Source: Eledone cirrhosa
Taxonomy: Eukaryota
Direction: 5' to 3'
Length of the DNA stretch: 64,000 nt
Assembly: GCA_964016885.1 (NCBI GenBank)
Contig: CAXHJY010000429.1
Span: forward strand, 1 to 64,000
In this document: positions 44,801 to 59,800 of the stretch, piece by piece
Numbering within the stretch: the first letter of the stretch is position 1
Layout: every line of letters starts with the position of its first letter
Notes under the pieces: model-generated
Databases searched by the model: none
What the model was told of the DNA's origin: nothing
Seen by the model: the letters and a program-made list of their open reading frames with translations, nothing else
Position numbers and translations under genes: made by a program

Positions 44801-47800
44801 TACATAGGTGGTGAATTGGCAGAGTCGTTAGAATGTTAGATAGAATGCTTTATGGTATTTGTTCCAGCTCTCCGCTCTCTGAGTTCAAATCCTGCTGAGG
44901 TCAACTTTGACTTTCATCATTTTGAGGTTGATAAAAAAGTACCAGTCAAGTACTGGGGTCGATTCTTCCTCTATATCACTTTCTATTTTTCTCTGGAAGA
45001 AATCTGCTGGACTCAGGTCTGGAGAGGAGATGGGCTCTGCCAGGTTTAAAGTGCCCAAGAAATGCTGTATGTCAATACGTCACCTCTACAACTCTATCAG
45101 GAGTTATGGGACCATACCATATCTACATGCCCTCCTTATATTCTATATCTTACTATTGACTGGTATTGTATGACATCCACTCAGAGATTCTCCCCCTCGC
45201 ACTCATCCTCCTTCTACTCATCCACGTATGTATTTATGTACCAACATTATTTACTATATTTTCTATATTACATGCAGGGTGAACTTCCAATTTCCCCAGT
45301 TCCTATTGAAGCCAAAGATATGGAGAACAACTATACAGTCAAATATTCTATTATAAAGGGTTTGTATTGCAAACTAACATCACAGTTCCATCCATATCTT
45401 ACCAGTAATGCACTGGGTCGATTTAATAAACTTGCCCCTCCCCTTTAAATTGATGGCCTTGTGCCTAAAACAGAAACATTTATTATTATTATTATCATCA
45501 TCACCATCATCCTCATCATCATAACAGCCTACATTTTTTTTCAGTAATACCATCAACCCTCGGGAATTACATCAGTATTAATAGTTCATCAGGAAAAATG
45601 AATGTGATTCAGAAATTACCTGCAGATATCTCTTCACCTGGGCTTATTTATGTTAAGGTACGTTGTCAGTAACATAGGACACTTATCTCTGTAATACAGT
45701 GTTTCCCACAGTAACAAGACTGCTAGGATACTTATCTATGTCATACAGTGTTTCCCGCAGTAACAAGACTGCTAGGACACTTATCTCTGTAATACAGTGT
45801 TTCTCACGGAATATTCCTGAGCTTAAATTATTAACTTACTATGAAATGTCAATCATTATAGAACTGGTATTTGAGCTTTGATTAGTAACCTTCTCTGAAA
45901 TCTCACCCATATTATAACAGTGGTGTTTGAGCCTATAAAATAATTCCCATGATATAACATCTCTAATCATGCTTCACCTGCATTTCATTCTTCTGTTGTA
46001 GGCTGAAGATGTATCACCAGCAGCACATTTATCCATTGCTATTTTAACAGTTGTTTTAACTGACAAGGTAGGTAAAATTCAAGCAAATATATCTACTTCT
46101 ATATATTTTGGTATAACATCATACATTCTGGTTTTGAATATAATATACTCTTTTCTTTAGCAAATTTCTAATGAAAAACAATGTATAAAAATTTGAAAAT
46201 AATCAAGAATTTAGAGAGATTTAAGTTGGTGTTTGAAGCATTACTGAAGAAAGGTTCTTACATAAAATTAAAATGGAAGGTTTTTATATAAATATAAACA
46301 TTTTAAGACAACATTATTTTATCGTTGAACCAGGAGTGTTTGGAAGATAACTTAAAGGTTTTTACATAAAATTATAATGGAAGGTTTTTAGATAAATATG
46401 AACAGTTTAAGACAAACAGTTTTGTATCATAGAACCAGAGAGGGGTTTTCAGGTGGTTTGGCATCAAAAGGGTTAAATGTTATTTGATGTATAAAAATAG
46501 GAATTTGTTTTCAGCTTGGCAGTGAACCCAAATATTGTAAAGAAGTTGATAATAGTCAAATGTTATAGTCACTTAATACATCACTAGTGTATGTGTCATT
46601 TTATAATACACTACAGTTGACACTAAACACATGCCCTATTTGATTTTCACTTCAGAGAAGGTCACAGAAAGTGTGATGAAAGAACTTTGACAAACTAAAA
46701 CTAATAATAAAACTGAAGTGAAAATCGAATAGTGCATGTTTTTTTATTAGCAAAATGACCATCTCCAAATATTACAATATCTGTTTCGACATATGAGTTC
46801 ACATGAGAAATCATCAAGAAACCCTGGGTTCCTGATAATTTCTCCCGAATGAAACAGTTCTAGCCCTGTAGAAGCCTTTCTATATTAAATATTTATACTC
46901 TGCTTTGTATTGAGTACCTTACTTACTATGGTTACCCCCGATTGAACCCAGGATAAACTTAGATATATATATAAATATATATTCTATAGTATAACTTATT
47001 TTATAAATGTTTTCTCCTGGATTATAGCCGATAACAACAACAGTGAATACAAAGGCAACTACAGTTCCACCGAACCAAACCACTGAAACAGCACACTATA
47101 ACAATACTACTTTGGTATATTTCTTCCTCTTCCTATACCTCTTTACATTTACACCTTTTAACATTCTTAATACAATATTAACATTAACGTAACATCACAC
47201 ACACATACACACACATATATATATATACATATATACATACACACACACATATATCTATCTATCTAAGGCGGGTAAAATTCACGAGATCCATGGACGAGTT
47301 CTCTCCAGCGGTCTCTGTCCCTCATTATCGCTGCCATGTCCTGCGTCTCCAACAGACCAGTGTCTGTCCTTAGGGCATCAACATACATTAACCGTGGTTG
47401 AGAGGAAGAGCATGGCCTGGGCGGCGTGCCACAGCTTGAGATCGGTGTGGAAGTCGGACCTTCGTAGAGACCTGAAAATCCGCCTCTTCATTGCTGTAGT
47501 GGAGTCTGTGCTGCTGTATGGGTCTGAGACTTGGACACTGACCAAGAAACTCACTCAGATGGTGGATGGGTGCTACACGAGAATGTTGAGGATGGCTCTG
47601 AACATTAATCAGTATACACTGAGGATGAAAAACTCAGAGCTGTATGGGAGCATCCCAAAAGTCAGCTCAAAAGTGACACAGAGGAGACTGAGGTTAGCTG
47701 GACATGCTCACCGACATCCAGAGTTGACATTGCACTCAGTACTCCTTTGGGAGCCCCTACATGGACACACTAGAAGAGGAAGACATATATATATATACTT

Positions 47801-56800: not shown

Positions 56801-59800
56801 AAATTCTCGCACAGACATGCCCCCCCCCCCCCCGCCACATTTTACTTCGCTGATGCTTAACTGTCTTACCACAAAGATTTGGTATATTAGTTCCTTTTGA
56901 AATGCAATGCTCTAAAATGGCAGACAAACTACATTTGTGGTTTCCCTATGAAAAATACGCACAAACATAAAAGAAATTACCATAAGTCTCAGTTATCTTT
57001 TTATTTCTTCCATTCTCTTCTATTTTATCTCCTGGTGGAGGATTAAAATACAAAACTTTAAGGTTACAATTCACTTGATGCATTTATAATTGCTTTTATA
57101 CATATTTCGATGATAACAGTTATGCAACATTTATTACTATAACCGTGATTATGAATAAACGAAGATGAATTATAACCTGTTGACTTGTACTTCATGATTA
57201 TAAATATACTCTGGAGTAAACAGACCTACTTTGTACTTCGTACTACTACTACTACTACATATATATATATATATACATATATATATATATACATATATAT
57301 ATATATATATATATGTATATATATATATATATACACACACATATATATATATATATATATATATGTATATATATACACACACATATATATATATATATAT
57401 ATATATATATATATACATATATATATATATAACCAAAGATTAGTATGGTTCGTTGATTACTCAACGAATACAATAAATAAATATATATATATTTATATAT
57501 ATATATATACACATATATATAAGTATTAATTGCGTCCATAGGCAGTATGCCAAGATGAGCACTCGAAGTTGTGGGGAGCAGAGTATCAATAATAACAATA
57601 TATAAGGGAACAAAGAATCAGTGTTACATCATATATATATTTAATTACATATTACACATGTTTCACTGCCGATCAGCTCGAGGAGCGATCGATTAATGAT
57701 CGAACCTGACTCTGGAATTGGGAGCTCCTCAGATATGTGTTAATTAAATATGTAATTAAATATGTATATGATGCAACACTGATTCTTTTTTCTCCTTATA
57801 TATATATATACACATAATAATAATATATATGAGAAGAAAGATATATATAAATATATATATATATATATATATATTTTATTCAAATTTTCCTGAAATAATC
57901 ATTTATATTTCTCTACTGTTATATTTTGGTTACAGCTACCTCCAGCATCTTCATCATCTGATCAAGGGCAGACAACTGGAACTACCTTCACTCAGAGTTT
58001 GGTACTAAATTCTTTGTAAAGATAATCTAACTAATTAACATGGATAAAAAAAAAATTAAAAAAATTTCTTTTTCCTTGCTTGGGAGTAAATATACCTCCA
58101 GCCCCTTCTCGCACATGCATACACATACATACATAGATACATGCATCGATACATACATAGATACTCATTCTATTCAGGTTAAATAGTGAGTCTTGTTACA
58201 CTGGGGTTTTGTCTGTTAATCACAGGGTCATCAGACATATAAAACAATCACGTAGGAGACAGTAGGTTCAAATTTACCTACTTTATGTGTTGCACAATCG
58301 CCGTTATATGTATTTCGATGGTAACTGTTATGTACAGTTATGACCTTATTACTCAATAAATGTAATTACAATAAATGTAATCTGAGTTTTTCGAATATTA
58401 ATAATAACATTCGATTCGTTTGCAATTATGCAAACAAGCCTCAATTTTATAGCCATGTCAGTAGAATGAACACTTCATTCTTGCTCTTGCTCTGGCAGTT
58501 TGGCAGGTGAACAGTGAGCTGCACTAATAAAGGGTGATATCCAGAAACATTAGTGTCTGCAGTTATGTTCACATGCCAACACAAGAGTAAGAATGAAGTG
58601 TCCATTCTACTGATATGGCTATAAAATTGAGGCTTGTTTGCATATTTGCAAACGAATCGATGGCACTCTTGAGTCATCTCGATCATGCCCCTTAGGCTTA
58701 TAGCTGATCCTATGGTTGTGGGACGCCTTAGCTAGCGCTGAGTTATAATAATCAACATTACTATTGAAGATCTCTTTATTGGCAGACAAGTTAGAGATCC
58801 TGTCAGAGACACTCCTAACTACGGCCTTAACTATAGATCTAGGGTGATTGGACCCAGCGTTGATATACACCAGCTTCTCATTGGGTTTATGATATGGGCG
58901 GTGTAGTTTGGTGTTGAGGTTGAGGGTGGTGTCCAGGAAATTCACTACTTTTCTATTGAGTTCCATCTCTACTCTAAGTCCTATCTTGCTAAAAAAGTGT
59001 CCAATTCTCCTCTTCATATTTTCGACCATTGTGGTGCTGTGGTATACGACGGTGAAGAGTGCATCGTCTCTGTACAGTCCGCCACCAAGGTTGGGTATTT
59101 CGCTCCTGATCTCGTAGGTCAAATACCAATCCTACTAGCATCTACAAACTGACCAATGAGAATTAAGATTATTCCTGCTGACAACATTAAATTATCCCTA
59201 ACAAGCTCACATGTCCCAAGGCTCTGAAACCATCAACACCAAAAACACAGAGCTGGCATATCTAAGAACTCACTAACTGCCTGATGAGGTCATAACCATA
59301 CAATCGCTATCATCGAAATATATATAGCAGTAAATAAAAGATTATGAGTTCATGCAATTGACTTATGTTTCGTCACTATATATATATATATATATATATA
59401 TAAATACAAGTATCCAGTTCCAGGCAGTCTCTATTATTTTCTCTCTAACCTCATCTTCCCACTACAAACCTGACATTACACCAGACTTGCCAACCTCTAA
59501 AAACCCAAACGGGGAACACCATGTAAAAAATGGCCCCCAAACATCCCTAAATGCTTTCCATTAGTGGCTTGGCAGTATCTGTAGAGGGTCGGACGCCATG
59601 CTTTGACGCATAGAGTTACGGCCCTTGCCATTCTGAGTTCAAGTCCCGCCGAGGTTAACTTTGCCTTTCATCCTTACGGGGTCGATAAAATAAAGTACCA
59701 GTAATGCACTGGGTAATTGCTGGCCTTGTGCCAAAATTAGAAACAATTATTACACTAATGCTTTGCCTTTCGTCCTTACGGGGTTGATAAACGTACTGGG

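What the first reader, a model, noticed from the sequence alone, without database searches (positions are those of the whole stretch)
47028..58001. Mucin stalk built from tandemly duplicated phase-0 exons: a possible splice-tunable spacer
Seen: five S/T-rich exons all end TTG|gta and begin after a gg(t/a)t(t)a(t/c)ag-type acceptor. Three encode the identical 31-aa peptide [31 protein letters not shown] and share short intron flanks, while the introns between them hold different mobile elements. The only exonic difference noticed is synonymous. Inference: all are 0-0 cassettes, so any subset can be skipped to change the reach of the ectodomain. The near-identity implies recent duplication, gene conversion or selection. 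Vertebrate CDHR5 also has roughly 31-residue mucin repeats and isoforms lacking them (recalled, to be verified).
Basis: partly seen in the sequence, partly recalled or inferred. Interest (0 to 1): 0.7.

Follow-up and report, generated by a model that had tools for sequence, protein, structure and literature searches.

The report
CDHR5-like octopod cadherin, exon-built mucin stalk
A cell-adhesion gene of a likely octopod carries three almost identical copies of one small exon coding for a serine/threonine-rich stalk; the copies are likely spliced one after another and would hold the cadherin tip away from the membrane, a layout known from other mucins, while length tuning by exon skipping remains untested.

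Summary
Five phase 0-0 S/T-rich exons end TTG|gta; three encode one 31-aa peptide (one synonymous difference) inside about 200-300 nt of shared flank. Only these three copies were found in the 3.0-Gb assembly, and short-read contigs fit three real copies. The host gene encodes a signal peptide, three cadherin repeats, the 144-aa stalk and two alternative terminal exons, each with its own transmembrane helix and tail. The cadherin part matches the N-terminal EC1-3 of Cad99C/PCDH15, keeps their EC1 cysteine pair, and its predicted structure is nearest to vertebrate CDHR5. One RNA-like run holds a 98-nt contig that simulation reproduces only if copies are joined copy to copy. Skipping was not shown: phase 0-0 is common in this gene (6 of 10 internal upstream exons), though stalk donors are weak. 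The Octopus bimaculoides orthologue has its own, different, near-identical 30-aa units, so the repeat turns over by lineage. One exon per mucin repeat, and splice-tuned length as an idea, are published (chicken Muc13, Schistosoma SmPoMuc); CDHR5 has 31-aa repeats and mucin-less isoforms. Verdict: real; new variant of a known kind; interest moderate.

The parts
29769..29832 (+). First coding exon, signal peptide (predicted)
   Evidence: ATG-led hydrophobic leader, GT donor, frame continues through all later exons without a stop
32483..46067 (+). Ten exons for three cadherin repeats EC1-EC3: 32483-32545, 33038-33171, 36872-36910, 38139-38228, 39383-39487, 40805-40927, 44300-44455, 45278-45359, 45545-45657, 46002-46067
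   Evidence: AG/GT borders and open frame; 41% identical to O. sinensis P0023 over 323 columns; Pfam Cadherin on P0023/P0173; Cys27 and Cys98 of the model
47028..47114 (+). Stalk exon 1 (29 aa, T-rich, two N-glycosylation sequons), phase 0-0
   Evidence: no second copy among the 40 scored genome matches
52918..53010 (+). Stalk repeat exon, copy 1 (31 aa), phase 0-0
54852..54944 (+). Stalk repeat exon, copy 2, identical to copy 1; 3-nt deletion in the upstream flank
   Evidence: 98-nt contig of run X3 fits 54851-54944
56342..56434 (+). Stalk repeat exon, copy 3, one synonymous change at 56380
   Evidence: 145-nt contigs of X1 and X2 span 56320-56464
57936..58001 (+). Stalk exon 5 (22 aa), phase 0-0, diverged relative of the repeat exon
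61099..64000 (+). Terminal exon TM-A: transmembrane helix plus very long tail with poly-proline runs; frame runs on to contig position 65337 (1412 aa). A second terminal exon, TM-B (own transmembrane helix, acidic 336-aa tail, phase-0 acceptor), lies beyond the window at G000:C456:68778-69788
   Evidence: TM-A; 49% identical to O. vulgaris P0001 over 683 columns. TM-B; 40% identical to O. bimaculoides P0127; the one strong match of 5 in the genome search

Best explanation
The five exons encode a 144-residue S/T-rich segment between three cadherin repeats and a transmembrane helix, which likely acts as an O-glycosylated spacer holding a PCDH15/CDHR5-type adhesive tip away from the membrane; it likely grew by repeated duplication of one phase-0 exon, and the three recent copies are likely spliced in tandem into one message. 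Shown: exon anatomy, open frame, three copies, two separate TM+tail terminal exons, homology of the tip. Inferred: tandem inclusion (one contig plus simulation), glycosylation and rod shape (composition; 48% S+T), about 8 nm per copy (0.25 nm per residue, recalled), a role in links between microvilli-like protrusions (by likeness to CDHR5). Stalk length likely changes mainly by gain, loss and homogenisation of exon copies over evolutionary time; some skipping within an animal is plausible but untested.
For: Gene model open over 489 codons up to the stalk end. Three copies only. X1/X2: a 145-nt contig at 56320-56464, reproduced to the base by a multi-copy de Bruijn simulation after one bubble is removed, against 801 nt for a single copy; its depth is 2.7 and 2.5 times that of the unique flank contig (15.4/5.75, 5.06/2). 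X3: exon contig at depth 53.9 with unique intron bins at 0-3.5, 98 nt long, ending at the donor, 4 letters unaligned before the acceptor G; 3 of 11 simulated cases give 98 nt and all 3 contain a copy-to-copy junction; single-copy or mutually exclusive use gives 359 or 628 nt. O. bimaculoides P0127: 197-aa stalk, 49% S+T, two identical 30-aa units and two at 87%, but 42-53% to the window's unit. Octopus EC1-3 profile: the 15 best single-stretch scores among 168 cadherins are all N-terminal stretches of the Cad99C set; both EC1 cysteines align with Cad99C cysteines (17 of 22 rows each), the hallmark disulfide of PCDH15/CDHR5 (PMC8691648, passages). ESM Atlas: nearest by features to P0173 and nearest by structure to P0023 are CDHR5 clusters (0.92; TM 0.75 and 0.77 against at most 0.65). 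Foldseek rank 1 is PCDH15 EC1-3.
Against: X3 is not on record as RNA, is one run of one study, its four unaligned letters were not printed, no copy-to-copy joint appears among the 15 joints shown (29 not shown), and contigs are simplified graphs. No X3 contig covers the copy-3 marker base 56380, so inclusion of copy 3 is not shown. X1/X2 may be the sample of the assembly. The Cad99C set came from a search with the same query and rank 15 (67.4 bits) is level with the best other cadherin (67.3). The Foldseek lead is slight (5.6e-19 against 2.3e-18 for CDH23; TM 0.36) and the model was built on a Cad99C alignment. By features, P0023 25-335 is nearest to unnamed cadherin clusters, not CDHR5. Sequence searches of the PDB list no CDHR5 chain in the rows shown and rank PCDH15 low. 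O. bimaculoides exon borders were not seen; I cut its units at recurring motifs.
Confidence: 0.62

Rival explanations
1. Splice-tuned spacer: cells regulate how many stalk exons are included, giving up to 16 stalk lengths from 0 to 144 residues and so setting the reach of the adhesive tip by tissue.
For: All five exons are 0-0; donors match 4-5 of 9 consensus positions against 6-8 of 9 for the 11 upstream exons, pyrimidine fraction 0.50-0.65 against 0.60-0.90; the O. bimaculoides records are named isoform X5 and X6, so several isoforms are annotated; human CDHR5 has long, short and partly deleted mucin isoforms, the two main ones with different targeting.
Against: No skipped junction was seen; the 98-nt contig argues against detectable skipping of exon 47028-47114 in X3 (94 nt expected); 6 of 10 internal upstream exons are also 0-0; the other O. 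bimaculoides isoforms were not seen and may differ only in the terminal exons; identical copies make skipping invisible to short reads.
Confidence: 0.27
2. Nearly neutral duplicates: only one copy is used at a time, or the extra copies are recent, selectively idle products of microsatellite- and repeat-driven duplication.
For: The shared unit is short and fades into TA/TATC microsatellite; near identity needs no selection if the events are recent; copy 3's marker base is not covered in X3.
Against: Single-copy and mutually exclusive models give 359-628 nt contigs, not 98; a second species has independently several near-identical units in a RefSeq protein.
Confidence: 0.08
3. Assembly artefact: one exon was assembled three times on a short contig (86,649 nt).
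For: Copies 1 and 2 are identical over exon plus 45 nt downstream; the contig is small and repeat-rich; no read record spans the whole stretch laid.
Against: Each copy has private flank differences and non-colinear introns; read contigs cover copy-2 and copy-3 private flanks and break where several copies predict, with a depth ratio of 2.5-2.7.
Confidence: 0.03

Closest known systems
Vertebrate CDHR5 (mucin-like protocadherin, Cr-3 subfamily)
   Same: Few N-terminal cadherin repeats with an EC1 cysteine pair, membrane-proximal tandem S/T/P repeats that differ between species, single TM, tail with poly-proline (TM-A). Nearest Atlas clusters by features and structure. Human CDHR5: 4 x 31 aa, isoforms with, without and with part of the repeats (passages).
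   Different: Three cadherin repeats, not four (PMC8691648); each repeat is its own exon here (CDHR5's exon layout was not checked); two alternative TM+tail exons; orthology not tested by a tree.
Cad99C / PCDH15
   Same: EC1-EC3 align collinearly with their N-terminal three repeats, both cysteines in register; Foldseek rank 1 is PCDH15 EC1-3. Alternative C-terminal tails in PCDH15 (recalled).
   Different: They have long ectodomains (10 Pfam Cadherin stretches in P0006); here the stalk follows EC3 directly, and each terminal exon carries its own TM.
Chicken Muc13 PTS domain (PMC1552070, passages)
   Same: One near-identical exon per mucin repeat in a transmembrane protein; the authors proposed length control by splicing in 2006.
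   Different: Muc13 has a SEA domain and no cadherin repeats; no SEA match in P0173.
Schistosoma mansoni SmPoMuc (PMC2576457, passages)
   Same: Invertebrate mucin repeats as repeated exons with shared intron flanks, bounded by microsatellites, homogenised by concerted evolution.
   Different: SmPoMuc units are about 1 kb, whole-intron homogenised, up to about 20 copies in a multigene family; here three copies, 200-300 nt shared, one gene.

Membership tests
Cr-3 cadherins (PCDH15 / CDHR5 / Cad99C group) | Cysteine pair on strands A and F of EC1 | tested here: met
   Cys27/Cys98 in the model, Cys29/Cys101 in three Octopus proteins, aligned with Cad99C cysteines; CDHR5 has C5-C73. The bond itself was not shown.
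Cr-3 cadherins (PCDH15 / CDHR5 / Cad99C group) | N-terminal repeats closest to those of the group | tested here: met
   Top 15 of 168 profile scores are Cad99C-set N-termini; Atlas structure top two CDHR5; Foldseek rank 1 PCDH15 EC1-3. Margins are modest and the Cad99C set was preselected.
Cr-3 cadherins (PCDH15 / CDHR5 / Cad99C group) | Placement in the clade by phylogeny | not tested
CDHR5 | Four cadherin repeats | tested here: not met
   Stalk starts right after EC3 in the model and in P0127; CDHR5 has four.
CDHR5 | Membrane-proximal mucin-like tandem repeats | tested here: met
   144 aa, 48% S+T, three identical units; 197 aa, 49% in P0127.
CDHR5 | Isoforms lacking all or part of the mucin domain | tested here: inconclusive
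   No skipped junction seen in the part of the table shown; contigs cannot show absence.
CDHR5 | Heterophilic link with a CDHR2-type partner at microvillar tips | not testable with these tools
   No tissue, location or partner data.
PCDH15 / Cad99C proper | Long ectodomain of about eleven repeats (number recalled) | tested here: not met
   Three repeats only.
Exon-per-repeat mucin domains (chicken Muc13, SmPoMuc type of gene layout) | Each near-identical repeat is a separate in-frame exon | tested here: met
Exon-per-repeat mucin domains (chicken Muc13, SmPoMuc type of gene layout) | Several repeat exons occur in one transcript | tested here: inconclusive
   Favoured by the 98-nt contig and simulation, but the run is not recorded as RNA and the junction letters were not shown.
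MUC13 | SEA domain | tested here: not met
   No SEA among 10 Pfam matches to P0173 at E up to 1.

The most novel reading that the evidence does not exclude
Octopods have an unrecognised CDHR5 counterpart, made from the tip of a PCDH15/Cad99C-type cadherin, that links microvilli-like protrusions and works as a modular ruler: splicing sets link length in steps of about 8 nm by choosing the number of identical mucin exons, and separately chooses between two different membrane anchors and tails. It would be either a deep homologue of vertebrate CDHR5 or an independent invention of the same design.
Probability: 0.2. Interest if true: 0.72.

Novelty: new variant of a known kind. Interest (0 to 1): 0.46.

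Why it matters
The exon-per-repeat mucin layout is known, so the repeat itself is not surprising. What is less expected is the host: a cadherin with a PCDH15/CDHR5-type tip on a mucin stalk in a mollusc, split or mis-joined in the public annotations of three Octopus species (P0001, P0023, P0124 + P0127) and not found in my literature searches. It offers a test of whether the CDHR5 design is older than vertebrates or arose twice, and a clean case (identical cassettes, one RT-PCR) of the 2006 proposal that splicing sets mucin length within an individual.

Tried and rejected
No RNA holder was listed for the TM-A exon; that blank is not used as evidence. The reads could be laid only on 54710-56790, so copy 1 and the flanking stalk exons have no read evidence and copies per transcript could not be counted. 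Folding P0023 without an alignment failed (pLDDT 32) and was not used. Genome searches with P0023 and with a Cad99C protein (stricter first look) returned only generic large-exon cadherin matches, so neither a paralogue nor a separate full-length PCDH15/Cad99C gene could be shown or excluded. The word-index protein searches missed P0127, which the HMMER search found, so other isoforms may exist unseen. My automatic exon scan missed the three copies because of its pyrimidine filter, so it cannot exclude further weak exons; a blastn of the three exon types over the contig found no further copy. A candidate exon near 60948 has no phase 0-0 borders and was dropped. Gene conversion was considered: identity falls from 99% in the exon to background within 50-100 nt (1 of 27 synonymous sites against 12 of 42 flank positions, p = 0.011), but that flank is microsatellite-like, was chosen after looking, and three sequences give only singleton differences; not claimed. 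No complex prediction was run. Earlier-finding look-ups returned nothing. Literature: no paper held any of four locus/protein ids (two of the ids were guessed neighbours); none held Cad99C + PCDH15 + CDHR5 + evolution; searches listed no description of this gene; term look-ups in PMC11431876, PMC6339937 and two octopus cell-atlas preprints found nothing bearing on it. Supplementary tables were not searched (those of bioRxiv are closed) and may list the gene under its RefSeq names.
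Full report
Observation. Each has an AG acceptor, ends TTG|gta and is a multiple of three long. Copies 1 and 2 are identical; copy 3 has one synonymous change at exon position 39. The shared unit is 213-283 nt including flanks. In 45-nt windows identity stays above 90% for 45 nt on each side, lasts to about 90 nt for copies 1 and 2, and then approaches the background of random intron pairs (median 23, 95th percentile 27 matches of 45). 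The introns (5803, 1841, 1397, 1501 nt) are not colinear duplicates; they hold fragments of one very common repeat in different positions. A DNA search of the whole assembly found 3 matches of 3 candidates, all in the window.

Are the copies real? Contigs of three coded runs of one study were laid on 54710-56790 (3 of 3 laid). In X1 and X2 a 145-nt contig spans 56320-56464. A k=31 graph simulation gives 138 nt with all three flanks, exactly 56320-56464 once the small bubble between the upstream flanks of copies 1 and 2 is removed, and 801 nt for a single copy. That contig's depth is 2.7 and 2.5 times that of the unique flank contig. These runs may be the assembly's own sample, and no record spans the stretch, but an artefact is unlikely.

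Are they spliced? X3 is not on record as RNA, but it behaves like a transcript library: unique intron bins beside the copies have depth 0-3.5 where X1 has 8-15, and one 98-nt contig of depth 53.9 fits 54851-54944, that is the exon plus the acceptor G, with four letters left over upstream. Exon 47028-47114 and the repeat exon share exactly five final bases (CTTTG), so a graph holding both junctions yields 5 + 93 = 98 nt. Of 11 simulated cases, 3 gave 98 nt and all 3 hold a copy-to-copy junction; one copy or mutually exclusive use gave 359 or 628, skipping of the first stalk exon gave 94, tandem use without a second way out gave 99, genomic DNA 138 or 84. Limits: one contig, four letters unseen, 29 joints and 24,460 pieces not shown, the copy-3 marker base not covered. 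So at least two copies are likely joined in one message; the number and any skipping are open.

Is skipping likely? For: stalk donors match the consensus at 4-5 of 9 positions against 6-8 for the 11 upstream exons, and their pyrimidine tracts are poorer; weak sites are typical of cassette exons (established knowledge, recalled). Against: the five sites descend from one exon, and 6 of 10 internal upstream exons are also 0-0, so phase alone says little. The 32 subsets give 16 lengths. At 0.25 nm per residue (recalled) a copy adds about 8 nm and the full stalk about 36 nm.

The host gene. Exons from 29769 give a signal peptide and three cadherin repeats (345 aa), then the 144-aa stalk (48% S+T, five N-glycosylation sequons), in one open frame. 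Two phase-0 terminal exons follow, each with its own hydrophobic helix, stop codon and downstream [15 protein letters not shown] (61099 to contig position 65337, 1412 aa, poly-proline) and TM-B (G000:C456:68778-69788, 336 aa, acidic). All close relatives are Octopus proteins: O. vulgaris CAI9740380.1 (P0001; 49% to TM-A; its model nearly lacks the stalk and joins both terminal exons), O. sinensis XP_036368702.1 (P0023; ends after EC3) and O. bimaculoides XP_014773479.1 plus XP_014773486 (P0124, P0127/P0173). That the organism is an octopod is inferred from these. One strong TM-B match exists in the genome (1 of 5 matches, stricter first look), so the gene is likely single-copy and orthologous to these.

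Comparison across species. P0127 has a 197-aa stalk (49% S+T). Cut at recurring motifs it gives seven pieces, two identical 30-aa units and two more at 87%, while identity to the window's unit is 42-53%, partly from shared serine richness (the one repeat-to-repeat pair tested was reached by 1 of 1000 shuffles; three other cross-species pairs were not significant). Units are thus alike within species and unlike between species, the pattern of lineage-wise duplication or homogenisation. Its exon borders were not seen. Its records are named isoform X6 and X5; the other isoforms were not found.

What the tip is. A profile of the octopod EC1-3 scores best against the N-terminal three repeats of Cad99C: ranks 1-15 of 168 cadherin proteins (99.5-67.4 bits; next 67.3), the five orthologous records left out. 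Both conserved EC1 cysteines align with Cad99C cysteines (17 of 22 rows each); this pair is the A-F disulfide shared by PCDH15 and CDHR5 (PMC8691648, passages). The ESM Atlas puts CDHR5 clusters first for P0173 by features (0.92) and for P0023 by structure (TM 0.75, 0.77 against at most 0.65), although by features P0023 is nearest to unnamed cadherin clusters. A model built on a 22-row alignment (pLDDT 77.5, pTM 0.45) has PCDH15 EC1-3 as Foldseek rank 1 by a small margin. Plain sequence searches of the PDB did not single out either protein. It works like CDHR5 in layout; it is not filed as CDHR5, because it has three repeats, not four, and no tree was made.

What is known. Chicken Muc13 has one near-identical exon per PTS repeat, and its authors proposed splice control of length (PMC1552070, passages). 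SmPoMuc genes have repeated mucin exons with homogenised flanks between microsatellites (PMC2576457, passages). Human CDHR5 has 4 x 31-aa repeats, a short isoform without them and one with a partial loss; repeat number and length vary among mammals (10.1101/2023.02.22.529570, passages; its supplement was not visible). Poly-proline motifs in the CDHR5 tail are noted in PMC12413639 (search listing and start of abstract only). My ten searches showed no description of this octopod gene; subscription papers and supplements were not covered.

Verdict. A real, probably expressed exon triplication in the mucin stalk of a CDHR5-like cadherin. Best explanation: a glycosylated spacer built and renewed by exon duplication, copies included in tandem (0.62); regulated tuning as the main function 0.27; idle duplicates 0.08; artefact 0.03. 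New variant of a known kind; interest 0.46, resting more on the host gene than on the repeat.

Noticed in passing
window 61099-64000 (to G000:C456:65337) and G000:C456:68778-69788: Two alternative terminal exons, each with its own transmembrane helix: a 1412-aa proline-rich tail and a 336-aa acidic tail whose last residues (DSIRL) recur in O. vulgaris P0001; both have counterparts in Octopus proteins.
   Followed up: partly
window 62745-62936: In-frame 24-nt tandem repeat (six copies; 8-aa unit rich in S, C/Y, D, V, G) inside the TM-A tail; by eye O. vulgaris P0001 has no such run at the matching place.
   Followed up: no
window 41289-44117 (- strand): Long reading frame that looks like the endonuclease/reverse transcriptase of a non-LTR retrotransposon (label from recalled motifs) in the intron inside EC2, with one stop near 42471.
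   Followed up: no
window 8552-9500 and 53971-54578: Several copies of a roughly 600-nt element flanked by TA repeats, about 45 kb apart in the same locus (seen by eye).
   Followed up: no
window 21990-23680: About 1.7 kb minisatellite of a 33-nt unit upstream of the gene; also a roughly 530-nt pure GT run at 11300-11830 and about 5 kb of TA/CA microsatellite at 1-5100.
   Followed up: no
window 40262-40687 and 49097-49601: Long near-perfect inverted repeats (203 nt at 97% with a 20-nt loop; 138 nt at 99%), likely small inverted-repeat elements.
   Followed up: no
P0001, P0023, P0124 + P0127: The orthologue is mis-joined, truncated or split in the public annotations of three Octopus species and carries four unrelated automatic names (mucin-5AC-like, fat-like cadherin, uncharacterized, serine-rich adhesin).
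   Followed up: partly
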